Of a stretch of DNA of 64,000 nucleotides, positions 45,849 through 64,000 are shown piece after piece. Where the stretch lies: positions 285,231-349,230 of the forward strand of contig OZ242174.1 of assembly GCA_965205685.1 (NCBI GenBank), read 5' to 3'. The notes under the pieces were generated by a model. It saw only the letters and a program-made list of their open reading frames with translations, was not told the origin of the DNA and did no database searches. Source of the stretch: Gammaproteobacteria bacterium. Its GTDB lineage: Bacteria > Pseudomonadota > Gammaproteobacteria > UBA4575. Positions within the stretch are counted from its first letter, which is position 1, and each line of letters begins with the position of its first letter. The position numbers were made by a program, and so were the translations under genes.

Positions 45849-46087
45849 ATATGCCTCCTCAAATAGGATGCTCCAGTTCCTGGTCAGGAAGTCCATGTCT
45901 GGCCCAGGGGTTGTCTGAATTGAAACACCTGCGGACCCTCCGGTTTGAATTATTTTAGGATGATCTATAATAATATATTTATCTATAATTATGATGAGTG
46001 TATATGTATTGTATACAGATCAAGAATTCTGATTTAATCTGTATTAATATATATAATTAATCTTATGATTTATAATAACCTATCGAT

Positions 46088-46684
46088 ATGACCTACACCA
46101 CTGAACATATTACCCAGACACTCAAGCGCGCCCGAGAGGCTCAAGCGCTCAGCCAGCGCACACTCGGCACCCAAGCCGGTGTGCCCCAGGGACATATCTC
46201 GAAAATCGAAAACGGGGCCGTGGACCTGCGTATATCGAGTCTGGTCGAGCTTGCACGCGTGCTGGGTTTGGAGGTCATGCTCGTGCCCCGCAAAAGCGTT
46301 TCAGCCGTGCAGGCCTTGGTGCGAAACACAGGGGGACTTGGCGAGGGACCTGCGCCCAAGGCACCTAGGGAATTAGGTCGATTGCAAGGCAGGATCGCCA
46401 ACCTTGTGCAAAAGCACCCCACTGTGCATGAGGTGGCGCAGCTGCACCGCCAGGCAAACGAATTGGCACATGTTCGTATCCCGCAGGACCACCTTGCAGT
46501 GATCAGGGCGGTGGAGGATCTGGTAGAGGAGTATTCCAGTGACAGCATGCGCACGGTTTCCCTGGTTGAGGCGTTTGAACGGATTCGCCGCCTGCGCAAT
46601 AAACTGGCCCATGGAGTTGAAGCTCAGCAGGATGATCCGCAAGTGCGCCCGGCCTATCGTTTGGACGAGGATGAGGATGGCTGA
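46088..46684 (+). CDS. hipB: HipB-like XRE-family HTH antitoxin with long C-terminal extension
   Basis: HTH LSQRTLGTQAGVPQGHISKIENG. Its stop overlaps the hipA start by 8 nt. Confidence 0.7.
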   Translation: MTYTTEHITQTLKRAREAQALSQRTLGTQAGVPQGHISKIENGAVDLRISSLVELARVLGLEVMLVPRKSVSAVQALVRNTGGLGEGPAPKAPRELGRLQGRIANLVQKHPTVHEVAQLHRQANELAHVRIPQDHLAVIRAVEDLVEEYSSDSMRTVSLVEAFERIRRLRNKLAHGVEAQQDDPQVRPAYRLDEDEDG

Positions 46685-55676: not shown

Positions 55677-56185
55677 TCATCAAATGACAAACAACCCAGC
55701 AACGCTTCCAGTTCCAGAACATTGTGCCTGCGAATCTCCAGAACATCCTTAGGAAAATTTGTCTTGTAGTTGTCTTGAGTCGTCAGTGTGGTTGGAAGCA
55801 AATTGTTCACCCGTGACTTGCACTCTGCACATGTGCTTGGCACCGGCTCATCGAGAATTTTTAGCAACAGTCCTTCGATGCAGGGTGTCGAGCCTATGAT
55901 CCGAATCTTTTTTGATTGGGCACGCTTCTGTATCGCTGCCGATATTTCCAGGTCGGTATCCAGCAAAGCTATAACCCGGTTGTATGCCGCATTCCTGCAT
56001 TGTTTGATGGCGTAGTCCACTACATGAGCCGGCCCTTTACCGTGCGCATTGCGAATCTTGGCACTCACTCCGCACCCGCGACCGACATAGAGAGATTTGA
56101 CGTGACAGAGAAATGCGCACTCGGTTTTACCCTCCCCTACCAGCAGGACGGTATGACGGGCAGCGCGCCATTCGCGTGAAGGCAT
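55673..56185 (-). CDS. RloB-like protein (partner of abortive-infection AAA ATPases)
   Basis: 170 aa with a VLLVGEGKTE start typical of the RloB/DUF4276-like TOPRIM-type family. 11 nt after the ATPase stop. Confidence 0.6.
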   Translation of the reverse strand: MPSREWRAARHTVLLVGEGKTECAFLCHVKSLYVGRGCGVSAKIRNAHGKGPAHVVDYAIKQCRNAAYNRVIALLDTDLEISAAIQKRAQSKKIRIIGSTPCIEGLLLKILDEPVPSTCAECKSRVNNLLPTTLTTQDNYKTNFPKDVLEIRRHNVLELEALLGCLSFDD

Positions 56186-56196
56186 CCGTGATCCCT

Positions 56197-57393
56197 TTAA
56201 AAATCAGGAACAGCGCCGTATGCACCGGCACGGTACTTGGCATACAGATTGTCATCCCGGCGAATACCCTTCATGTCACCGAGTCGCCAGGCCTCACTGT
56301 TGCCGTCTGGATCTTTTTCAATGAGCAGGACTTGGTCCTTTTGCAATTCATTGAGAATCTCGTGTGCATGGCATGTAAATATGATTTGAGCATTCTGCGG
56401 GTTGTGATCGCGATCGATGAAGAGATCAAGCAGCGCAATGATCATGTCTGGGTGCAGGTCCGCCTCAATCTCGTCGATGATGACGATGCCACCATGCTCT
56501 AGGGCTGGCAGGATCCTCTCCAGCAGAACAAATGCCGCCTGCGTGCCACTGGATTCATATTCGAGTGGTAGCTTATGCTCCTGTCCAGCCTTGCGGTGAA
56601 CACCAAAGGGAACATTGACCTCCTCACTCTTGCCGGACTGCCTTTCCACATACTTACGCGATTCAATGATGACTTCGGCAATACCCAAATCCAGACGGCT
56701 CAGGATAGCGGACATTTGCGCACGTAACGCCGGGCGGTCATGGAAGAAATCGGCTACATCGAACACGTCCCGCACATCAAAATGATCTCGACCGCTGTCG
56801 TACACGTTGGAGTAGAATTGCGAAAAATAATTGACCAGTCCCTGTGCGCACGGCACGTTGTATTGCGCCGAAGTCGAGATTAATGATGCGTTCGGGCGGA
56901 CTTTTTCGGCCTCACTGGCCGCAAAACCAAATTTCTGCTGGCGGATGTTGTAGGAAGAATCCGACTCGGACCAGTCCCGACGAAAAATAAAGCTGAAGAA
57001 CTTGCTGGTCTTGAGATACAAGGATTCATGCAGGACCCGCTTCGGGGTGACGGTCAGGTAATAGCGGTAAAACTGTCCCTGGTCCTCGAATTCAATCTCG
57101 AACTCGCTATGGGCCGAGTCGGAGAAAAAATGAGGATGTACCGGGATATCCTCCTCCGGTTTTATGGAAGTGAACGAATCTGCGATGAACCAACTCAGGA
57201 AAGACAGCGGCTTCAGCACGTTGGTCTTGCCGGAAGCATTGGGACCGATGACTGCAAGGACTTTCGACAGACGTGCACCTCCCGGACTCAGGAACACCAG
57301 GTCCGAGTTCGGCACCTGGCGATTGAGTACGAAAGAGACCTCCGTTTTCTCGGCAAACGAGAAAAAGTTCTTGAATCGGTATTTATGCAGCAT
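56197..57393 (-). CDS. AAA-family ATPase (AbiL/RloA-like, AAA_15/21)
   Basis: Walker A GPNASGKTN. Walker B/D-loop IVIIDEIEADLHP. Typical split ABC-type ATPase of two-gene defence modules. Confidence 0.75.
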   Translation of the reverse strand: MLHKYRFKNFFSFAEKTEVSFVLNRQVPNSDLVFLSPGGARLSKVLAVIGPNASGKTNVLKPLSFLSWFIADSFTSIKPEEDIPVHPHFFSDSAHSEFEIEFEDQGQFYRYYLTVTPKRVLHESLYLKTSKFFSFIFRRDWSESDSSYNIRQQKFGFAASEAEKVRPNASLISTSAQYNVPCAQGLVNYFSQFYSNVYDSGRDHFDVRDVFDVADFFHDRPALRAQMSAILSRLDLGIAEVIIESRKYVERQSGKSEEVNVPFGVHRKAGQEHKLPLEYESSGTQAAFVLLERILPALEHGGIVIIDEIEADLHPDMIIALLDLFIDRDHNPQNAQIIFTCHAHEILNELQKDQVLLIEKDPDGNSEAWRLGDMKGIRRDDNLYAKYRAGAYGAVPDF

Positions 57394-57423
57394 GAGCCCA
57401 CCTGGACAGTATAATAAAAGCAA

Positions 57424-57447
57424 TAATTAACATAATTATGTTAATTA
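57424..57447. promoter_or_regulatory. 24-bp perfect palindrome upstream of the ATPase operon
   Basis: TAATTAACAT-aatt-ATGTTAATTA, ~30 nt upstream of the ATPase start codon. Confidence 0.4.
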
Positions 57448-57571: not shown

Positions 57572-58252
57572 TCAGACCACCATGCCCTTGAACACCACGA
57601 CCCCGCAGATGGTAGCATCCGAATTGATCTCGATGATGCGCTCCGGCCAGGCCGGGTTCAGCGCTCTCAGGTACTGGCGCTCGCCTTCAACGACCAGTTG
57701 CTTGAAGGTTGTCTCGTTGGTGGAGTTGAGCATCACGACTACGTACTTGCCGTGGCTTGCCACCACCTCGGGGTCGACAAAGACGAGGTCCCCCTCGTGG
57801 AAGTCGGGTTCCATGCTGACGCCGCTGACCCGCAGCACGAAGGTGCGGCTTGAACAGCGTACCGGGCAAGGCAGTAGCTCGGTGTCGTAGTCCGGCACGA
57901 ACTCCTGGCACGTCTCGCGCCAGGCACCCGCCTGCACCCAAGAGATCAGCGGGCACAGGGTGTGGGTGCCGCCCTCGCCGTGAAAGCGTACACCGCTGCC
58001 GAATTCGCGGTTCACCGGCTCATGGTGCTCGTCCATCCAGCCCTCGGGCTTGCCCATGCCGGCCTCCAGCATGCCGGCCACCTCATCGCCAAGCCGTCGC
58101 GGCGTGCCGCTGGGGGTGCGGGTCTGGTGGCGTACCTGGCTGAGGTAGGACTTGTTGGTGCCGGCCGCCTTGGCCAGCTCGGCGACCGAGCCCGCCTCGC
58201 GGATCAGGCGCTCGAGATTTTGCAGGCGGATCTGGTCCTGTTTTCGCGTCAT
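57572..58252 (-). CDS. cI/LexA-like repressor (HTH plus S24 peptidase domain)
   Basis: N-terminal HTH, a C-terminal GVSMEP serine and a KQL lysine of the S24 autoproteolytic fold. Confidence 0.75.
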   Translation of the reverse strand: MTRKQDQIRLQNLERLIREAGSVAELAKAAGTNKSYLSQVRHQTRTPSGTPRRLGDEVAGMLEAGMGKPEGWMDEHHEPVNREFGSGVRFHGEGGTHTLCPLISWVQAGAWRETCQEFVPDYDTELLPCPVRCSSRTFVLRVSGVSMEPDFHEGDLVFVDPEVVASHGKYVVVMLNSTNETTFKQLVVEGERQYLRALNPAWPERIIEINSDATICGVVVFKGMVV

Positions 58253-58268
58253 GCCGGGTACTATAGCA

Positions 58269-58322
58269 TATAATTATCTATATGATAATTAATACTTGCC
58301 CATCAGTTATCACTTTGATAAC
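58269..58322. promoter_or_regulatory. divergent promoter region with two TTATC/GATAA-type inverted repeats (candidate operators)
   Basis: ATAATTATC-tatat-GATAATTAa and AGTTATCA-ctt-TGATAACT, between the repressor gene and the ParB-like gene. Coordinates are approximate to within 1-2 nt. Confidence 0.45.
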
Positions 58323-58330
58323 TTAAATGG

Positions 58331-59746
58331 ATGAGCCGTTCCCCGCAAACTGCCCTGCCGGTCGCCCCCGGCGATCCATGGATCCCGGCCGAGGGTCCGC
58401 AGCCGATGCAGGTGGAGGTTGCCCGCATCAGGTGTTACGAGCGCAATCCCCGGCGCCTGGAGAATCCGCAATACGACCGTATCAAGGCCTCGATCCGCAC
58501 TCGCGGCATGGACCAGCCGCTGTACATCACCTGCCGCCCCGGCGAGTCGGACTACATCGTGCAGGCCGGCGGCAACACCCGGCTTCGCATCCTCAAGGAA
58601 CTGCATGCGCACACGGGTGAATCCCGCTATGCGCACGTGCATTGCCTGCTCAGGCCCTGGACCTGCGAGTCCGACGTGCTGCTCGCGCATCTTCGCGAGA
58701 ACGAGCTGCGCGGCAACCTTCCCTTCATCGACAAGGCGCAGGCCGTGCTTGAGACCCGCTCACTGCTCGAGGAGGAGCAGGGAAGTCCTCTTACCCAGCG
58801 CGCGCTCGAGGCGCGGCTTCGCGAGCGCGGCTACAGCATCACCCACGGGCGGATTTCGCTGATGGAGTACGCGGTCACCACGCTGGTGCCCTGGATTCCG
58901 CAGGCGCTGGAAGCCGGTCTCGGCAAGTTGCAGGTGGCGCGCCTTCGGGCTCTTCACCGGGCCGGCGCACGGCTGTGGGAGCGTTATTGCCCGGACTGCG
59001 AGACGGCCTTCGATGCGCTGTTCGCGGTCCTGTGCCGGCGCTACGACGGCCCGGACTGGGACGGGGCCGCCCTGCAGGGAGCCGTGGAGGTTGAAATCGC
59101 CTTGGAGGCCGAACTCGGCCTGCACACCGTTCGAACCGCCCTGGATGCTGAACTGCAGGGCCGCATCGTGACCTTCCCGCCCCCCGAGCCCGAACCGCAG
59201 GATCCGCCCCCCGCTCCCGCACGCGCGCAGGCTGCAAAGACAGAACCCGGCCTCGGGTCCACGGACCTGGTCGACCCCGAGGCCCGCGATCTCCCGTATG
59301 TCTTGGCCGAGCAGGCCCTGGCCGAAGGCCCGGACCTCAACCAGCTGCGTGATCGCATCCGGCAACTGGCCGAGCGCTTGGCCGAACGGGCAGGCTTCGC
59401 TGGGCAGGTTCGCCCGCTGGCGGAACTGGGGTGTGGCTTCGTGCTCGACGGGAATCCGCCCGAGCTGGCCGGGGACTGCAAGGAAGAGGAATTTTGTGCC
59501 CGCATGCTGTGGTGGCAGTTGGCGGCCTGTGCGGAGATGACGCAGGTTCCGGACGATGTACTGGCTAGCGGGCGTTTTGAAGATGCGGCCTTTGGCACGG
59601 CCATCGAGGTTCAGGACCTTGCCCGGCTTTGGCGCAGCCTGCACGAGCAGGACTGGAACGACCTGGTGCGCCTGATGGATGCCTACCGGCGCCTGCATCT
59701 TGGTGCCGAGGCACGTGGGCAGGCGCTGTGGACGGGTATCCCATGA
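58331..59746 (+). CDS. ParB-like nuclease domain protein (ICE/prophage-associated)
   Basis: ParB/Srx motif region with RCYERNPRRL and a long C-terminal extension. 471 aa. Confidence 0.65.
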   Translation: MSRSPQTALPVAPGDPWIPAEGPQPMQVEVARIRCYERNPRRLENPQYDRIKASIRTRGMDQPLYITCRPGESDYIVQAGGNTRLRILKELHAHTGESRYAHVHCLLRPWTCESDVLLAHLRENELRGNLPFIDKAQAVLETRSLLEEEQGSPLTQRALEARLRERGYSITHGRISLMEYAVTTLVPWIPQALEAGLGKLQVARLRALHRAGARLWERYCPDCETAFDALFAVLCRRYDGPDWDGAALQGAVEVEIALEAELGLHTVRTALDAELQGRIVTFPPPEPEPQDPPPAPARAQAAKTEPGLGSTDLVDPEARDLPYVLAEQALAEGPDLNQLRDRIRQLAERLAERAGFAGQVRPLAELGCGFVLDGNPPELAGDCKEEEFCARMLWWQLAACAEMTQVPDDVLASGRFEDAAFGTAIEVQDLARLWRSLHEQDWNDLVRLMDAYRRLHLGAEARGQALWTGIP

Positions 59747-60342
59747 AAGGGACCAAGGAAGCCGAGCTGGTCACCGCGGTGCTCATGTATGCCGTGCGCT
59801 GCCTGGCCGAGGGCGACCTGGCCGCGCTTCGCCTCATGAAATTCGGGGCGCGCGAGATCGAGGCGCTTCGCGAGATGAGCCTGCCGGACTTCTACCGGGT
59901 CGAGGCCTTGCGTGCGCATTGCCTGGAGATCCGCCTGAACCGGCAGGTGTACTGGCCCATGATCGAATACCTGCGTGAGCAGCGCAAATCCGAGGACGTC
60001 ATGCAGGCGCTGGTGGCCGCCGATGCCCCGCGCGAGATGCTGCAGGTGCTGTTTGGCCTGAACTCGAGGGAATACGGGCGGCTTCGTCGCAGCCTGTCGG
60101 TGGACCCTTCGAGCGGGCGCCCGCCGGCCCCGGACGAGGACAGCTCGCACGAGCTGTGGAAAATCTGGTCGGCACGCACCGACCGTGACGCCTCGGGACT
60201 GCTGGCACCCAAGGCCTATCTGGAACTGCAACAGGAAACCGGCTTGTCCATGCGCGCCATCTGGTACCTGACGCGGCGCTGGGTGCAGTACGGAAACCTG
60301 GCCGAGACCTTCGATGAGGCCGTGAGCCGTACCAATCGCTGA
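59743..60342 (+). CDS. ICE-associated conserved hypothetical protein
   Basis: 4-nt overlap with the ParB-like gene. It resembles conserved hypotheticals that follow parB-like genes in pKLC102/PFGI-1-type ICEs. Confidence 0.4.
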   Translation: MKGTKEAELVTAVLMYAVRCLAEGDLAALRLMKFGAREIEALREMSLPDFYRVEALRAHCLEIRLNRQVYWPMIEYLREQRKSEDVMQALVAADAPREMLQVLFGLNSREYGRLRRSLSVDPSSGRPPAPDEDSSHELWKIWSARTDRDASGLLAPKAYLELQQETGLSMRAIWYLTRRWVQYGNLAETFDEAVSRTNR

Positions 60343-60598: not shown

Positions 60599-60631
60599 AT
60601 GCATAATGATTGCATTGCAATCATTATGCAT
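60599..60631. promoter_or_regulatory. 33-bp perfect palindrome upstream of vapB (candidate autoregulatory operator)
   Basis: ATGCATAATGATTGCA-t-TGCAATCATTATGCAT, ~35 nt upstream of the vapB start. Confidence 0.5.
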
Positions 60632-60664: not shown

Positions 60665-60910
60665 ATGGCAAGTATCACGATCCGAAACCTCGACGGTGAT
60701 GTGAAAACGCGCCTGCGTGTACGTGCCGCTGAACACAGCCGTTCGATGGAGGAGGAGGTCCGCATCATCCTACGGGATGCCGTCAGCGACAAGAAGTCTG
60801 AGCTGCGGAATCTAGCAGAATTCACGCGCGAGTGTTTTGGGCCACTTGGTGGCGTGGAATTGGAGCTTCCGCCTCGCAGTCCGATGCGCGAACCTCCGGA
60901 CTTCTCCTGA
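60665..60910 (+). CDS. vapB: VapB/FitA-type ribbon-helix-helix antitoxin
   Basis: The N-terminus MASITIRNLDGDVKTRLRVRAAEHSRSMEEEVRIIL is typical of the RHH family. Confidence 0.75.
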   Translation: MASITIRNLDGDVKTRLRVRAAEHSRSMEEEVRIILRDAVSDKKSELRNLAEFTRECFGPLGGVELELPPRSPMREPPDFS

Positions 60911-60922
60911 AGCTGGTCCCAC

Positions 60923-61345
60923 ATGTACATCATCGACACGAATGTGGCCTCCGAACTGATGCGGCCAGAGCCGGCACCTGCGGTTATGGCATGGATTGCG
61001 AAGCGGGATGTCGGAGATCTTTGCCTGACGGCAATCAGCGAAGCCGAGTTGCGCTACGGAGTCGCAATCGTCCCGGCTGGCAAGCGAAAGAATGATTTGG
61101 AAGCTGCCATGATCCGTTGGCTTGACACGGGCTTTGGTGAGCGGATTCTGCCGTTTGACAGCGCCGCTGCAGTGCATTATGCAGAGGTCGGCTCACGTCG
61201 GCGCCACGTGGGTCGACCTATCGAAGAGGCCGACTGCCAGATTGCCGCCATTTGCCGCTCACGCGGGGCTGTTCTGGTGACCCGCAATGTCCGGGACTTC
61301 ATCGACACCGACATTGAAGTCGTCGACCCCTGGGCGGCAGAATAA
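60923..61345 (+). CDS. vapC: PIN-domain VapC/FitB-type toxin
   Basis: MYIIDTNVASE (Asp of PIN), E…D…TRNVRDF acidic residues. 140 aa. Confidence 0.8.
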   Translation: MYIIDTNVASELMRPEPAPAVMAWIAKRDVGDLCLTAISEAELRYGVAIVPAGKRKNDLEAAMIRWLDTGFGERILPFDSAAAVHYAEVGSRRRHVGRPIEEADCQIAAICRSRGAVLVTRNVRDFIDTDIEVVDPWAAE

Positions 61346-61536: not shown

Positions 61537-62073
61537 ATGACGACCCCTGTCACCATGCTTAGGTGGTTTGGCTGGATCAGCGTGTTCGCCATCGCTTCGG
61601 CTTCAGCACTGGCACAGCACCCTCACGCGGCATCGCCGCATGCGCATGCCCAGAGCAGCGAAGTTCCAGGCCTCTCACCCGATGAAGTGCGCGCGCTGCA
61701 AAACGGCGAAGGCATGGGCCTTGCGCTTGCAGCCGAGCTGAACCACCACCCAGGGCCGAAACACGTTCTCGATCTGCGCTCGGAGCTCAAGCTCGACGAC
61801 ACACAGATCGAGCAGATCGAGGCGGTTTACCGGAAGATGAAAACCCATGCCATCACCAAAGGCGAAGACATCCTCCAGGCAGAGACTCGCCTTGCGAACC
61901 TGTTCAGCTCGGGATCGCCGGCAACTGCACAAGTGAATCATGCCACCGAACACCTCGGCGTGTTGCGAGGCCAGCTCCAGGCGATTCACCTGCTCGCGCA
62001 TATGGAGACTGTCTGCATACTGACGCCTGAACAGGTTGACGCGTACGACCTGCACAGGGGCCACCGGCACTGA
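61537..62073 (+). CDS. periplasmic CpxP/Spy-family (LTXXQ) protein
   Basis: Signal peptide, His-rich segment and LTPEQ motif. 178 aa. Confidence 0.6.
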   Translation: MTTPVTMLRWFGWISVFAIASASALAQHPHAASPHAHAQSSEVPGLSPDEVRALQNGEGMGLALAAELNHHPGPKHVLDLRSELKLDDTQIEQIEAVYRKMKTHAITKGEDILQAETRLANLFSSGSPATAQVNHATEHLGVLRGQLQAIHLLAHMETVCILTPEQVDAYDLHRGHRH

Positions 62074-62245: not shown

Positions 62246-62977
62246 ATGGACACCGAAGATTCCGAATCCCTGCAAGATGCCACGCCCAAGTCCGGCCCGG
62301 TCCCGGGCCGTCCCGGGGTGTTGCGCCCCGAGGTCTGGCTGGTCCTGCACACCCGCCAGGCGCAGTTGCTGATCCAGGGGCGACCGGCAGCACACAACAA
62401 GCCGACCATCATAGGGTTGCTCACCTTTGCCGATCGCCTGCGCCTGATCTGGGACGGCTCGCGCGCCGATGATCCCTGGGCCGACTGGTGGCTGGTCAAG
62501 GTCTGCGATGCCCTCGAGGCCACGCGCCAGCTGATCGGCAAGTGGCGGCGCGACATGGACAACCTGTTGGCCCTGCAGGCCCCTGGCATGCAGGTCTCGC
62601 TGGCTCAGTCCAAGCGACCGCACCGCACCCGCCTCGCGTTCGCCAACCCCTACGCCTACCAGGGTGCCGAGCTGCTCTGCGAGTACGATGCGCTGGTCTG
62701 CCGGGCGCTGACCGCAAGCCACATCGGCCGCCTCGACAACGCCACCCGCCATGAACTGCTGGTCGGCTGTTCGCGCAAGCTTCGCGCGGCCTTCATGATC
62801 CCGCAAGGCTACCGCTACACCGGCGTGGACCGCCAGGCCCTGCAGGAGAAAGACGGCAGGATTCGTACCGCCTGCTGGACCATGGGCGAGGTGCCCGAGG
62901 CGATCCTGTCCGGTGAGCTCCAGGCCCCGCAGGTGCCGCGAAAGTCCCAGGCTCCGAAACGCATGGCATTGAATTGA
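62246..62977 (+). CDS. ICE-associated conserved hypothetical protein
   Basis: No enzymatic motif. Position and size are compatible with conserved ICE core proteins of the PFGI-1/pKLC102 family. Confidence 0.35.
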   Translation: MDTEDSESLQDATPKSGPVPGRPGVLRPEVWLVLHTRQAQLLIQGRPAAHNKPTIIGLLTFADRLRLIWDGSRADDPWADWWLVKVCDALEATRQLIGKWRRDMDNLLALQAPGMQVSLAQSKRPHRTRLAFANPYAYQGAELLCEYDALVCRALTASHIGRLDNATRHELLVGCSRKLRAAFMIPQGYRYTGVDRQALQEKDGRIRTACWTMGEVPEAILSGELQAPQVPRKSQAPKRMALN

Positions 62978-63160: not shown

Positions 63161-63559
63161 ATGTCAAAAGACGAAAAGTATTTCGATCTTCAAACCACCG
63201 GCGTCGGCTATCTGAGTCGCGTCCGGGAGGTGACTCCCGAGCAGGGTTCGCCCTTTCTCGCGGTCACCATTGGCGCCCTTCGCGGGCGCACAGGCCAGGT
63301 CCAGTACACTCATTTCGAGTGTTCCGTGGTCGGCAGCAAGGCACAGGCGACTGTGCGCGAGCTGCAATCGGCCGTGGAGGGCCAGTTGAAGGTGCTCATC
63401 GGATTCACGCTCAGCAACCTGAGCGCGGAATCCTTCACCTTCCAAAGCGGCGAGCAGGCCGGCCAGCCCGGCGTGCGCCTGAAGGCGCGACTGCTGCGCA
63501 TCTCGTATGCCAAGGTGGACGGCCAGCCGTTCATCACGGACGCGAAGGCCGCCGCGTAA
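63161..63559 (+). CDS. ICE-associated small conserved protein
   Basis: 132 aa with an AAGGAG RBS upstream. Similar small proteins precede radC-like genes in ICEs. Confidence 0.4.
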   Translation: MSKDEKYFDLQTTGVGYLSRVREVTPEQGSPFLAVTIGALRGRTGQVQYTHFECSVVGSKAQATVRELQSAVEGQLKVLIGFTLSNLSAESFTFQSGEQAGQPGVRLKARLLRISYAKVDGQPFITDAKAAA

Positions 63560-63657: not shown

Positions 63658-63999
63658 ATGATGAACAACGAGCATGACCGGTTTTCCGGTCTGAAACTGT
63701 CGGAGCTGAATGTCGCAGAGCGGCATTCGGTGGTGAAACTTGCGATCCGTTCGCTGGCGATGAAGCATCGCGCAGGCCAGACCCTGGGCAGCCCGGACGA
63801 GACACGAAACTACTTGTGTCTGCGTCTGGCCGAGTACCGCAACGAGGTGTTCGGTGCCCTGTTCCTGGACAACCTGTGTCGCATCCTCGCCGTGCGCGAG
63901 CTGTTCCAGGGCACGGTCAACAGTGCCTCGGTGCACCCGCGCGTGGTCGTGCAGCAGGCGATGGACGCGAACGCCGCGGCCATCGTCTTTTTTCACAAC
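63658..63999 (+). CDS. RadC-like JAB-domain protein (partial, continues beyond window)
   Basis: MMNNEHDRF…DETRNYLCLRLAEYRNEVFGALFLDNLCRILAVRELFQGTVNSASVHPRVVVQQA matches RadC/UPF0758. No stop before the window end. GGAGA lies upstream of the ATG. Confidence 0.6.
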   Translation, partial: MMNNEHDRFSGLKLSELNVAERHSVVKLAIRSLAMKHRAGQTLGSPDETRNYLCLRLAEYRNEVFGALFLDNLCRILAVRELFQGTVNSASVHPRVVVQQAMDANAAAIVFFHN

Positions 64000-64000
64000 C

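What the first reader, a model, noticed from the sequence alone, without database searches (positions are those of the whole stretch)
57572..60342. cI-like repressor divergent from a ParB-like nuclease gene with two GATAA/TTATC operators
The 78-bp divergent region holds ATAATTATC-N5-GATAATTAA and AGTTATCA-N3-TGATAACT. This is classical lysogeny/ICE-switch architecture. The downstream ParB-like protein and conserved hypotheticals resemble the core of PFGI-1/pKLC102-class ICEs, and vapBC and radC-like genes follow. The window probably ends inside the element.
Basis: partly seen in the sequence, partly recalled or inferred. Interest (0 to 1): 0.5.

Follow-up and report, generated by a model that had tools for sequence, protein, structure and literature searches.

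The report
SOS-type repressor switch guarding an ICE
This is the on/off control region of a conjugative genomic island. A phage-lambda-like, self-cleaving repressor sits back to back with the island's master activator genes and probably holds them off through two matching DNA sites. That wiring has not been described for this island class, although every part is of a known kind.

Summary
A 226-aa HTH + Peptidase_S24 repressor (57572-58252, minus strand) is divergent from a ParB-family gene (58331-59746) across 78 bp. That spacer holds two copies of one motif, TTATC-N5-GATAA, 33 bp apart. These are the only two copies in 64 kb (0.01 expected).

The "ParB-like nuclease" is better read as a BisD-type CTP-clamp activator. 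It has GNTR and ENELR motifs, a ParB/Noc/KorB fold, a Pro-rich linker and a conserved C-terminal domain. Its DUF2857 partner (BisC-like) follows, then AcaB/PFL_4669, STY4534/DUF3577 and RadC. All are PFGI-1/pKLC102/ICEclc-class ICE core genes. A sister genome continues into PilL2, TIGR03759 and TIGR03765.

In 80 related loci the repressor keeps its operator at about -36 from its start codon. Most also carry bisDC on one side and xis-int-tRNA on the other, and 68 of 80 have a small Cro-like gene.

The window's copy is reduced. It has no Cro-like gene, integrase or tRNA, and a low-GC toxin-antitoxin/defence island sits in their place.

Best model: SetR/lambda-CI-like repression of bisDC, relieved by RecA-stimulated self-cleavage. 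This is a new variant of a known kind and of moderate interest.

The parts
57572..58252 (-). Rep: a 226-aa lambda-CI/SetR-like repressor. It has an N-terminal HTH, a predicted self-cleavage site at Ala108-Gly109 (WVQA^GAW), and the Ser146 (GVSMEP) / Lys184 (TFKQL) catalytic pair.
   Evidence: Peptidase_S24 scores 95.5 bits over residues 101-220. phrog_4 'transcriptional repressor' scores 117 bits over residues 9-223, and phrog_12107 covers residues 6-80. Lambda CI C-terminal domains are the best PDB matches. S146, K184 and A108 are invariant and G109 is at least 90% conserved in 20 homologues (A1). dN/dS against sister loci is 0.08-0.16.
58274..58288 (.). O1: operator TTATCTATATGATAA (extended palindrome 58271-58291). 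It overlaps the -35 element and spacer of the repressor promoter.
   Evidence: A site at the same position, about -36 from the Rep ATG (-34 to -49 across the family), is present in 61 of 74 related loci. The arms are conserved and the 5-nt spacer is free.
58307..58321 (.). O2: operator TTATCACTTTGATAA (extended palindrome 58305-58323). It overlaps the spacer and the extended -10 of the bisD-side promoter.
   Evidence: It is conserved as TTATCAGAATGATAA in L001-L004. Distant relatives have a second TTAGC-N5-GCTAA-type site next to the divergent gene.
58260..58288 (-). P_rep: -35 TTATCA (58288-58283), a 17-nt spacer, and an extended -10 TGCTATAGT (58268-58260). Seven nt then separate the -10 from the ATG at 58252, with no Shine-Dalgarno sequence, so the mRNA is predicted to be leaderless.
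   Evidence: The promoter scan gives 9 of 12 matches plus TG. TGCTATA(G/C)T / TGCTAAAGT lies 7-8 nt before the ATG across most of the family. Leaderless expression is an inference. SetR mRNA is reported to be leaderless (PMC4542580).
58296..58324 (+). Candidate P_bisD: -35 TTGCCC (58296-58301), a 17-nt spacer, and an extended -10 TGaTAACTT (58316-58324). Six nt then separate the -10 from the ATG at 58331, so this mRNA is also predicted to be leaderless. It is a weak core promoter.
   Evidence: Read directly from the sequence. It matches only 7 of 12 positions and the scan did not list it. Both elements and the 6-nt distance to the ATG are kept in L001-L004. This is an inference.
58331..59746 (+). 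BisD-like ParB-family CTP-clamp activator subunit, 471 aa. It has G81NTR84 and E123NELR127 motifs, a Pro-rich disordered linker at about 283-332, and a conserved helical C-terminal domain.
   Evidence: TIGR03764 scores 267.7 bits. The motifs are invariant in 35 homologues (A2). In the AF2 model the N-terminal part has high pLDDT and the linker is below 50. Foldseek finds Noc, ParB-CTP and KorB clamps at probability 1.00. The architecture matches that described for ICEclc BisD (PMC12409273).
59743..60342 (+). BisC-like DUF2857 protein, 199 aa. Its start codon overlaps the bisD stop codon (ATGA).
   Evidence: DUF2857 scores 148.5 bits. BisC of ICEclc is a DUF2857, FlhC-like protein (PMC7423338).
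60599..61345 (+). Inserted vapBC cassette: a 33-bp perfect palindrome (60599-60631), FitA-like VapB (60665-60910) and PIN VapC (60923-61345).
   Evidence: The cassette is absent from the sister loci L001 and L002.
61537..62073 (+). Periplasmic LTXXQ / Metal_resist-like protein (cargo). The family hits are weak.
   Evidence: both hits are below Pfam's cut-off. Present in L002 at 77% identity and absent from L001.
62246..62977 (+). AcaB / PFL_4669-family ICE regulator
   Evidence: TIGR03761 scores 169 bits and Pfam AcaB 199.8 bits.
63161..63559 (+). STY4534 / DUF3577 ICE protein
   Evidence: DUF3577 scores 157.8 bits. STY4534_fam scores 142.6 bits, below its cut-off of 160.
63658..64000 (+). RadC-like JAB protein, cut off by the end of the window.
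   Evidence: The translation ends ...VFFHN. The orthologue in L002 scores 141 bits on RadC.

Best explanation
This is the regulatory switch at the integrase-proximal end of a PFGI-1/pKLC102/ICEclc-class (MPF_G) integrative conjugative element.

**Proposed mechanism.** Rep is a lambda-CI/SetR-type repressor made of an HTH domain and an S24 self-cleaving domain. Dimers of Rep bind two identical 15-bp palindromes, TTATC-N5-GATAA, whose centres are 33 bp apart (about three helical turns) in the 78-bp spacer. O2 covers the spacer and extended -10 of the rightward promoter. It thereby shuts off the operon that starts with bisD-like (a ParB-type CTP clamp) and bisC-like (DUF2857) and continues to AcaB/PFL_4669, STY4534 and RadC. 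O1 covers the -35 of rep's own promoter, so Rep limits its own synthesis. Both genes appear to be leaderless.

DNA damage would produce RecA*, which stimulates Rep to cut itself at Ala108-Gly109 using Ser146/Lys184. Repression would then lapse and BisDC would be made. As in ICEclc, BisDC would load on the element and switch on the transfer-competence promoters.

**Shown here:**
- the gene identities, motifs and fold;
- the uniqueness of the sites in the window;
- family-wide conservation of site position and arms;
- synteny with bisDC and with xis-int-tRNA in relatives;
- purifying selection on the genes.

**Inferred:**
- that Rep binds these sites;
- the promoter assignments and leaderless transcripts;
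- RecA dependence;
- that the BisDC homologues activate transfer genes.

**This copy is a reduced version.** The Cro-like gene found in 68 of 80 relatives, and the xis-int-tRNA end, are missing. A low-GC toxin-antitoxin/defence island (about 46.0-57.4 kb) takes their place.
For: - **Repressor.** S24 domain, conserved cleavage site and catalytic pair, and lambda CI as the best solved relative.
- **Sites in the window.** Two exact copies against 0.01 expected.
- **Family conservation.** 61 of 74 relatives have a site within one mismatch of TTATC-N5-GATAA, almost all at the same distance from the Rep ATG. 66 of 75 non-redundant upstream regions fit TTAKC-N5-GMTAA within two mismatches. Information content is 1.81 bits in the arms against 0.62 in the spacer and 0.61 in the flanks (the sites were chosen by the motif, so the arm value is inflated).
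- **The site travels with Rep.** It is kept in loci that have Rep but no ParB: L005, L006, L067 and L076.
- **Covariation.** Rep residues 43-48 (TRTPSG-like against LPTKKG-like) track the arm GATAA against GCTAA across several lineages.
- **Promoter.** The extended -10 is conserved 7-8 nt before the ATG.
- **Synteny.** Rep is divergent from ParB-DUF2857-AcaB-STY4534 in about 60 of 80 loci from many Gammaproteobacteria.
- **ICE end in relatives.** xis/int and a tRNA or guaA lie directly downstream of Rep.
- **BisD features.**. BisC = DUF2857.
- **Conjugation genes.** They follow in sister locus L002.
- **Selection.** dN/dS is 0.06-0.40 for all five genes compared.
- **Precedent.** SetR is a leaderless S24 repressor at the ICE end that represses a master activator and is relieved by RecA* (PMC4542580).
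Against: - There is no binding, cleavage or expression data.
- P_bisD is a weak consensus match (7 of 12) and the scan did not find it.
- No N-terminal HTH passes Pfam's threshold (HTH_3 E = 0.06).
- The ICEclc bisS sequence is absent from the window, so the BisD loading site here is unknown.
- The C-terminal domain of the BisD-like protein was not compared directly with ICEclc BisD, and pKLC102 ParB aligns only over residues 25-242.
- In this copy no integrase, excisionase, tRNA or Cro-like gene lies within the 64 kb. The switch may therefore no longer lead to excision.
- O1-O2 spacing differs between clades (33 bp against about 47 bp), so cooperative binding is not a given.
Confidence: 0.7

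Rival explanations
1. Relic switch in an immobilised, decaying ICE. Rep and bisDC are retained, but this copy can no longer excise or transfer. The module either regulates only what is left of the element or is on its way to being lost. This concerns the state of this copy and is compatible with the mechanism above.
For: - There is no integrase, xis, tRNA or Cro-like gene in the window, whereas relatives have them next to Rep.
- The same chromosomal flank (SOUL/porin genes at about 41-45.9 kb) lies beyond the island in L004, L009 and L011, which represent different species.
- The 1.9-Mb MAG chromosomes (isolates from the sponge-associated bins) carry three Rep paralogues each, some without bisDC.
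- L011 keeps only Rep residues 75-226.
- The STY4528-family gene present in L021 and pKLC102 is missing here.
Against: - Rep, bisD, bisC, AcaB and STY4534 are all under purifying selection (dN/dS 0.06-0.40), and the operators and promoter elements are intact.
- The sister locus continues into conjugation genes and has an Integrase_1-type recombinase 3 kb beyond the window end.
- The far end of the element was not seen, so an integrase there cannot be excluded.
Confidence: 0.35
2. Rep is not SOS/RecA-controlled. It is inactivated by another signal or partner (an antirepressor, a protease or a small molecule), or it acts as a stable repressor.
For: RecA dependence is only inferred. Some CI-like ICE repressors use a partner protease (ImmR/ImmA in ICEBs1; my own knowledge). 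One family member, P0112, has the cleavage motif altered to YAAE.
Against: The Ala-Gly site and the Ser/Lys pair are invariant or nearly so across the family, which is expected only if self-cleavage matters. No ImmA-like gene lies next to Rep in the window or in the relatives inspected.
Confidence: 0.2
3. The palindromes are not Rep operators. They would be promoter elements only, or sites for another factor such as a Fur-like regulator (GATAAT/ATTATC hexamers) or the ParB-like protein itself (a parS/bisS-like site).
For: The arms contain Fur-box-like hexamers. O1 coincides with the -35 of P_rep and O2 with the -10 of P_bisD, so promoter conservation alone could explain part of the footprint.
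Against: - Both arms are conserved as a dyad with a free 5-nt spacer.
- In most relatives the arms are TTAGC/GCTAA, which is not Fur-like.
- The site stays with Rep where ParB is absent.
- The arm base tracks Rep residues 43-48.
- The known BisD sites are GC-rich 11-bp repeats inside inrR and ssb (PMC12409273).
- The orientation TTATC-N5-GATAA is not the 7-1-7 or 6-6-1-6 Fur-box layout (my own knowledge).
Confidence: 0.08
4. It is a prophage immunity region (cI-cro) rather than an ICE.
For: The repressor's best family hits are phage repressor PHROGs, and lambda CI is its best solved relative.
Against: The repressed operon consists of ICE-specific families (TIGR03764, DUF2857, TIGR03761, STY4534). 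The sister locus continues into the conjugative genes PilL2, TIGR03759 and TIGR03765. No phage structural or lysis genes appeared among the ORFs scanned between about 33 and 64 kb.
Confidence: 0.02

Closest known systems
SetR / CroS / SetCD switch of SXT/R391 ICEs
   Same: Both have a CI-like HTH + Peptidase_S24 repressor of similar size (215 aa against 226 aa) encoded at the extremity of the integrated ICE. Both are expressed from a leaderless mRNA; this is reported for setR and predicted here. In both, dyad operators lie in a divergent intergenic region and the repressor keeps the element's master activator off. In SXT/R391 relief comes through RecA*-stimulated autoproteolysis (PMC4542580). 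Most relatives of the window's element also carry a small divergent Cro-like gene.
   Different: The ICE class differs: PFGI-1/ICEclc-type core and MPF_G-type conjugation genes here. The activator is a ParB-type CTP clamp plus a DUF2857 protein (BisDC-like), not FlhDC-like SetCD. There are two operators rather than four. The window's copy has no Cro-like gene. Sequence relatedness of Rep to SetR was not tested.
ICEclc BisDC regulatory cascade (MfsR-TciR-BisR-PalpA-bisDC)
   Same: The ParB-like protein has GNTR and ENELR CTP-pocket motifs, a long linker and an extra C-terminal domain, and is followed directly by a DUF2857 protein. Further ICE core genes follow (PMC7423338 and PMC12409273; window data).
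   Different: There is no alpA-parA-shi upstream of bisD and no sign of a BisR/TciR/MfsR input. A divergent S24 repressor sits there instead. The ICEclc bisS sequence is absent. In relatives the integrase lies next to the regulatory end rather than at the opposite end. The protein is shorter (471 aa against 550 aa).
pKLC102 / PAPI-1 / PFGI-1 replication-partition-regulation cluster
   Same: The gene order ParB family - DUF2857 - (STY4528) - PFL_4669 - ... - ssb is shared, with vapBC nearby. The same NCBIfam ICE families hit.
   Different: In pKLC102 the genes upstream of parB run in the same direction (dnaB, yejK/ndpA2, an Arc-family gene), and no S24 repressor is present. PAPI-1 transfer is reported to be controlled by TprA, NdpA2 and MvaT (PMC8565334; title only). 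Only residues 25-242 of the window protein align to pKLC102 ParB, at 40% identity.
Phage lambda CI / OR-PRM-PR
   Same: Shared features are the S24 C-terminal domain with a VQA^G cleavage site and Ser/Lys pair, divergent promoters overlapped by dyad operators, and a leaderless repressor mRNA (lambda cI from PRM; my own knowledge).
   Different: This is not a phage. There are two operators 33 bp apart rather than three at 23-24 bp. This copy has no cro. The repressed operon encodes ICE regulators.

Membership tests
Lambda-CI/LexA-type self-cleaving (Peptidase S24) repressors | C-terminal Peptidase_S24 domain | tested here: met
   PF00717 scores 95.5 bits over residues 101-220. Lambda CI C-terminal domains are the best PDB hits.
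Lambda-CI/LexA-type self-cleaving (Peptidase S24) repressors | Ser-Lys catalytic pair and an Ala-Gly cleavage site in the hinge | tested here: met
   S146 (GVSMEP) and K184 (TFKQL) are invariant. A108 is invariant and G109 is at least 90% conserved in 20 homologues. The site aligns to lambda HVQAG.
Lambda-CI/LexA-type self-cleaving (Peptidase S24) repressors | N-terminal DNA-binding helix-turn-helix domain | tested here: inconclusive
   Pfam HTH_3 gives only E = 0.06. Phage repressor families do cover the N-terminus: phrog_4 over residues 9-223, phrog_12107 over 6-80 and phrog_5736 over 6-77.
Lambda-CI/LexA-type self-cleaving (Peptidase S24) repressors | RecA*-stimulated autoproteolysis and operator binding | not testable with these tools
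   This needs biochemistry. Only conserved dyad sites at a fixed distance from the gene support binding.
PFGI-1 / pKLC102 / ICEclc-class ICE (MPF_G) | Signature core genes: ParB TIGR03764, DUF2857, PFL_4669 TIGR03761, STY4534/DUF3577 | tested here: met
   Scores are 267.7, 148.5, 169.3 and 157.8 (Pfam DUF3577) bits. STY4534_fam scores 142.6 bits, below its cut-off of 160. The order matches pKLC102.
PFGI-1 / pKLC102 / ICEclc-class ICE (MPF_G) | Conjugation genes (PilL2, TIGR03759, TIGR03765, T4SS, MOBH relaxase) | tested here: inconclusive
   None lie inside the window. In sister locus L002 (88% DNA identity), PilL2 (100.9 bits), TIGR03759 (206.8 bits) and TIGR03765 (119.6 bits) lie within 5 kb beyond the window's end. 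The relaxase and the rest of the T4SS were not seen.
PFGI-1 / pKLC102 / ICEclc-class ICE (MPF_G) | Terminal tyrosine integrase next to a tRNA or other att site, with flanking direct repeats | tested here: not met
   There is no tRNA in 64 kb. tblastn finds no match to three integrase types or to xis, and no integrase domain appears among the ORFs scanned from 33 to 57 kb. Relatives have int (with or without xis) plus a tRNA or guaA within 2 kb of Rep. The far end of the element lies outside the window, so the att repeats could not be tested.
BisDC master activator (ICEclc) | BisD: ParB-like N-terminal CTP-binding domain with GxxR and ENxxR motifs, plus an HTH | tested here: met
   G81NTR84 and E123NELR127 have the same residues as BisD G92NTR95 and E136NELR140 and are invariant in A2. 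The AF2 model matches Noc, ParB-CTP-gamma-S, KorB and 6SDK at probability 1.00.
BisDC master activator (ICEclc) | BisD: long disordered linker and an extra all-helical C-terminal activation domain | tested here: inconclusive
   The architecture fits. The segments 283-305 and 307-332 have pLDDT below 50, and residues 322-461 are mostly helical with two short strands. The C-terminal domain is conserved in homologues and has no PDB match.
BisDC master activator (ICEclc) | BisC: a DUF2857 protein encoded immediately downstream | tested here: met
   DUF2857 scores 148.5 bits and the ATGA start/stop codons overlap. BisC = DUF2857.
BisDC master activator (ICEclc) | bisS loading sites (GAGCTATCCCCnGGGGATAGCTC) and upstream alpA-parA-shi with BisR input | tested here: not met
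   There is no match with up to 3 mismatches. No co-directional upstream genes exist; the divergent Rep sits there instead. A diverged cognate site may exist, most likely outside the window.
SXT/R391 SetR-CroS-SetCD switch | CI-like S24 repressor at the ICE end, divergent from the operon that leads to the master activator | tested here: met
   In relatives Rep is within 2 kb of the att-side integrase.
SXT/R391 SetR-CroS-SetCD switch | A Cro-like second repressor as the first gene of the divergent operon | tested here: not met
   There is no homologue in the window. It is present in 68 of 80 relatives, where its HTH assignment is only weak (phrog_35 E = 0.003, phrog_10248 E = 5e-7).
SXT/R391 SetR-CroS-SetCD switch | FlhDC-type SetCD activator and SXT-type core genes | tested here: not met
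   The activator pair is ParB-type plus DUF2857, and the core genes are PFGI-1-class. The switch works like SXT's but is not a member of that family.
   The top 25 structural matches are CTP-switch ParB, Noc, KorB and related ParB proteins that include the HTH. The CTP-pocket motifs are conserved. Nothing points to a nuclease.

The most novel reading that the evidence does not exclude
A large, mostly marine gammaproteobacterial clade of ICEclc/PFGI-1-class ICEs has replaced the MfsR-TciR-BisR input with a lambda/SXT-style SOS switch wired directly onto the BisDC CTP-clamp activator. The switch consists of the CI-like Rep, usually together with a Cro-like gene and xis-int on the same module.

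In this lineage (MAGs with ~1.9-Mb chromosomes, several from sponge-associated bins) the switch has been pared down to Rep plus two operators fused to a leaderless bisD. It stays under purifying selection after loss of the adjacent integrase. That would make it a retained DNA-damage-responsive regulator of a resident, possibly immobilised, conjugative island.
Probability: 0.3. Interest if true: 0.6.

Novelty: new variant of a known kind. Interest (0 to 1): 0.42.

Why it matters
BisDC is the conserved last step that turns on transfer of ICEclc-like elements. These elements carry resistance, virulence and catabolic genes in many Proteobacteria. The upstream cues are known only for ICEclc itself, and they appear to differ in other hosts (PMC13393423).

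A clade in which bisDC sits directly behind an SOS-type self-cleaving repressor gives a simple, testable cue: DNA damage. It also provides a compact two-operator system for studying how a ParB-type CTP clamp is brought under phage-like control, and it extends the SXT logic of 'antibiotic stress promotes ICE spread' to another ICE class. Several cultured strains carry the complete module, so the test is feasible.

For annotation, the result corrects 'ParB partition protein/nuclease' to 'BisD-like activator subunit'. It also flags this copy as a reduced ICE end that has been overrun by a defence/toxin-antitoxin island.

Tried and rejected
- **Source contig.** An exact look-up of the window's STY4534 protein found nothing on record, so the window could not be extended directly. 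I used sister locus L002 instead.
- **Integrase, xis and tRNA in the window.** ARAGORN found no tRNA. tblastn with three integrase types and xis gave only noise. Pfam found no integrase between 33 and 57 kb.
- **ICEclc bisS site.** It is absent with up to 3 mismatches. Other palindromes in 58.3-64 kb gave only the 33-bp vapB-proximal one, which belongs to an insertion.
- **Sequence search of the ParB-like protein against the PDB.** No meaningful hit. The fold had to be tested with a model.
- **Pfam on the small Cro-like ORF of relatives.** Nothing significant, and only weak PHROG hits. Its structure could not be predicted because it is not encoded in the window.
- **Strict specificity switch between TTATC and TTAGC operators.** Rejected as a clean rule, because many loci mix both arm types. 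Only a trend with Rep residues 43-48 remains.
- **Literature.** No paper in the searchable library describes an S24 repressor next to bisDC or parB in PFGI-1/ICEclc-class ICEs. The absence applies only to that library.
- **Considered and set aside.** Host LexA or UmuD (TIGR00498 scores 37.5 bits against a cut-off of 111) and a prophage (no phage genes).

Full report
**1. Observation**

The sequence is as described. A 226-aa ORF on the minus strand (57572-58252) and a 471-aa ORF on the plus strand (58331-59746) are separated by 78 bp. This spacer holds two perfect 8-nt-arm inverted repeats, at 58271-58291 and 58305-58323.

Both repeats reduce to one 15-bp motif, TTATC-N5-GATAA, at 58274-58288 and 58307-58321, 33 bp apart. 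They are the only two matches in the 64-kb window on either strand. Shuffles give 0.01 expected, and 0 of 100 reach two matches. The same holds for the degenerate family consensus TTAKC-N5-GMTAA (0.05 expected). One-mismatch matches elsewhere are at background.

**2. The genes**

*Repressor.* Rep carries a Peptidase_S24 domain (95.5 bits). Its best solved relatives are lambda CI C-terminal domains (E = 2e-8), and the alignment includes the cleavage region (query WVQAGAW against lambda HVQAGMF). In 20 homologues at 58-95% identity, Ser146, Lys184 and Ala108 are invariant and Gly109 is at least 90% conserved. The N-terminus is covered by phage repressor families (phrog_4 full length at 117 bits; phrog_12107 over residues 6-80). 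Pfam HTH_3 is only marginal (E = 0.06). Rep is not host LexA or UmuD, since it scores far below those cut-offs.

*ParB-family gene.* It scores 267.7 bits on TIGR03764 (ICE_PFGI_1_parB, cut-off 143.75).

*Following genes.* The next gene overlaps the ParB stop codon (ATGA) and is a DUF2857 protein (148.5 bits). After it come:
- a FitA-like VapB and a PIN VapC;
- a weakly LTXXQ-like periplasmic protein;
- an AcaB/PFL_4669-family protein (TIGR03761 169 bits, Pfam AcaB 199.8 bits);
- a DUF3577/STY4534 protein;
- a RadC-like ORF that runs off the window.

**3. Reinterpreting 'ParB-like nuclease'**

In ICEclc the former parB and orf97571 genes are bisD and bisC. Together they form the master activator of all transfer-competence promoters. 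BisC is a DUF2857, FlhC-like protein (PMC7423338).

BisD is a 550-aa ParB-like CTP-binding clamp. It has G92NTR95 and E136NELR140 motifs, a roughly 70-aa linker and a unique helical C-terminal activation domain (PMC12409273).

The window protein matches this description in several ways:
- It has G81NTR84 and E123NELR127, invariant in 35 homologues.
- Homologues cover 93-100% of its length and are 470-557 aa long.
- In an AlphaFold2 model (mean pLDDT 72.3), the N-terminal part up to about residue 280 is largely confident. Segments 283-305 and 307-332 have pLDDT below 50. The C-terminal domain is mostly helical.
- Foldseek against the PDB returns Noc, ParB-CTP-gamma-S, KorB and B. subtilis ParB 6SDK, all at probability 1.00. 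Nothing matches the C-terminal domain.

No nuclease reading is supported. The repressor therefore faces a bisDC-like activator operon, not a partition or nuclease gene.

**4. Relatives**

*Abundance.* The Rep family is large. There are 707 protein clusters with E <= 1e-5, and 163 stretches in species-representative genomes encode a relative, of which 80 were fetched.

*Synteny.* In about 60 of the 80 loci, Rep is divergent from ParB-DUF2857-...-AcaB-STY4534. The hosts include:
- cultured Alcanivorax nanhaiticus, Porticoccus litoralis, Haliea salexigens and Sedimenticola selenatireducens;
- many MAGs, among them Thiodiazotropha, Chromatiaceae, Halieaceae and unclassified Gammaproteobacteria from sponge-associated bins.

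*The other side of Rep.* Many relatives have a tRNA gene 1.5-2 kb downstream, pointing towards Rep. The interval holds an HTH_17 or DUF4224 excisionase-like gene and a tyrosine integrase. In L021 it holds instead a P4-type integrase next to guaA. With only three integrase queries, 28 of 69 loci with enough flank have an integrase within 3.5 kb of Rep. Rep thus marks the integrase-proximal end of the element.

*Cro-like gene.* In 68 of 80 loci the first gene of the divergent operon is a conserved ORF of about 95 aa (MELK...). It has weak similarity to phage repressor HTH families and is a candidate Cro analogue.

**5. Operators across the family**

A site within one mismatch of TTATC-N5-GATAA is found upstream of Rep in 61 of 74 loci, almost all 34-49 nt before the Rep ATG. 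With the consensus TTAKC-N5-GMTAA, most loci show two sites: O1 at about -36 or -47, and O2 at about -83 to -96, next to the divergent gene.

The arms carry 1.81 bits per position at O1 and 1.45 at O2, against about 0.6 for the 5-nt spacer and the flanks. The sites were selected with the motif, so the arm values are inflated. The contrast is also obvious in the raw ATG-anchored listing.

Two further points tie the site to Rep. It remains upstream of Rep in loci that lack ParB (L005, L006, L067, L076). The arm base (GATAA against GCTAA) tracks Rep residues 43-48 in several lineages, although the lineages are not independent enough for statistics.

Between the window and L001-L004, the arms, the extended -10 TGCTATA(G/C)T and the TTGCC(C/T) element are kept, while the spacers and the 7-nt leader change.

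**6. Promoters**

*P_rep.* The scan finds TTATCA-17-TATAGT with an upstream TG on the minus strand (58288 to 58260, 9 of 12 matches). The -10 ends 7 nt before the ATG and there is no Shine-Dalgarno sequence. This geometry is conserved across most of the family, so a leaderless rep mRNA is predicted. The same is reported for setR (PMC4542580).

*P_bisD.* On the plus strand I read TTGCCC-17-TAACTT with TG at the extended position, ending 6 nt before the ATG at 58331. This is a weak match that the scan did not list, so it is an inference. The N-terminal residues LPVAPGDP are conserved at the protein level in L003 despite DNA divergence, which supports 58331 as the start.

*Geometry.* O1 is centred at about -28 of P_rep and O2 at about -17 of P_bisD.

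**7. Mechanism**

The best-supported model has four steps.

1. Rep dimers on O2 block bisDC transcription.
2. Rep on O1 limits its own synthesis.
3. RecA* triggers Rep self-cleavage at Ala108-Gly109.
4. BisDC is then made and activates the transfer genes. The AcaB-family gene in the same operon may add feedback, as AcaB does for acaDC on IncC plasmids (PMC8373056). That last link is speculative here.

This is the logic of SetR-SetCD in SXT/R391 applied to the BisDC activator of the ICEclc class. Which steps are shown and which are inferred is listed under the best explanation.

**8. State of this copy**

The window's clade (L001-L004, Rep 93-96% identical) differs from the majority in four ways:
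- it has no Cro-like gene, so bisD is fused directly to the promoter;
- it has no STY4528-family gene;
- vapBC and the LTXXQ gene are inserted here but are missing in L001, and L002 lacks vapBC only;
- it has no xis, int or tRNA after Rep.

Instead Rep is followed by a low-GC region (0.46-0.55 against about 0.64). It contains AbiL, a HEPN/RES protein, a solo HigA-like gene, a Fic protein, AbiE, a HipA_2 kinase and HipBA. Its content varies between sister genomes. The chromosomal flank resumes at about 45.86 kb (L009 and L011).

Beyond the window's right end, the sister locus L002 has RadC, DUF6573, an Integrase_1-type recombinase, PilL2, TIGR03759 and TIGR03765. The window therefore ends inside a PFGI-1-class element.

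All five genes compared are under purifying selection (dN/dS 0.06-0.40, with Rep lowest at 0.08-0.16). The module is thus functional, but whether this copy can still excise is open.

**9. Comparison and novelty**

pKLC102 has ParB-DUF2857-STY4528-PFL_4669-DUF3158-Rha-ssb preceded by co-directional yejK and Arc-family genes, with no S24 repressor. ICEclc drives bisDC from PalpA through BisR, TciR and MfsR.

No paper in the searchable library links an S24 repressor to bisDC or parB of this ICE class. The parts are known and the combination is not described, which makes this a new variant of a known kind.

Interest is moderate. The finding gives a testable activation cue for a widespread ICE class, and cultured carriers are available. 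It is not surprising in principle, given SXT and ICEBs1.

Noticed in passing
window 60599-60631: A perfect 16-1-16 palindrome, ATGCATAATGATTGCA-T-TGCAATCATTATGCAT, lies 34 bp upstream of the FitA-like vapB. It is probably the VapBC autoregulatory operator. The whole vapBC cassette is an insertion absent from sister loci L001 and L002.
   Followed up: partly
window 46000-57430: A low-GC (0.46-0.55) toxin-antitoxin/defence island sits directly after the repressor. It contains HipBA (46088-47915), a HipA_2 kinase (48106-48918), AbiEii/AbiEi (50345-51945), a SoFic-like Fic protein (52069-53562), a solo HigA-like HTH (53774-54073), a HEPN/RES protein (54447-55676), and AbiLii/RloB (55673-56185) with AbiLi/AAA_21 (56197-57423). 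Gene content differs between sister genomes, as at a hotspot.
   Followed up: partly
L002/L006/L055 (OZ244850.1) and L003/L005/L061 (OZ243969.1): Two MAG chromosomes of about 1.9 Mb each carry three Rep paralogues in different states. One has bisDC but no int. One has Rep-DUF4224-int-tRNA-Arg but no bisDC, with an Integrase_1 recombinase and a type I HsdM upstream. One has Cro-like-bisDC. These look like serial acquisition and decay of related ICEs in small genomes.
   Followed up: partly
L011 10001-10456: Only Rep residues 75-226 remain, with no ParB within 10 kb upstream. The same TA island and chromosomal flank as in the window follow. The ICE core seems to have been deleted there, leaving a rep fragment. 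ARAGORN calls an unusual tRNA-Ala(AGC) just upstream, which may be spurious.
   Followed up: no
L021 9621-9905 and 67 other loci: A conserved ORF of about 95 aa (MELKDFLK...) is the first gene divergent from Rep in 68 of 80 loci, including loci without ParB. It has no Pfam family and only weak hits to phage repressor PHROGs. It is a candidate Cro-like partner. A third TTAGC half-site overlaps its start codon, 21 bp from O2.
   Followed up: partly
L021 3808-4914: The relatives' ICE core includes a ParM/StbA-like actin ATPase between the AcaB-family and DUF3577 genes. This gene is absent from the window's element.
   Followed up: no
window 58273-58302, minus strand: A second promoter-like match for rep (TGGGCA-18-GATAAT) has its -10 inside O1. 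It would give a transcript with a short leader. Its relation to the main predicted promoter is unknown.
   Followed up: no
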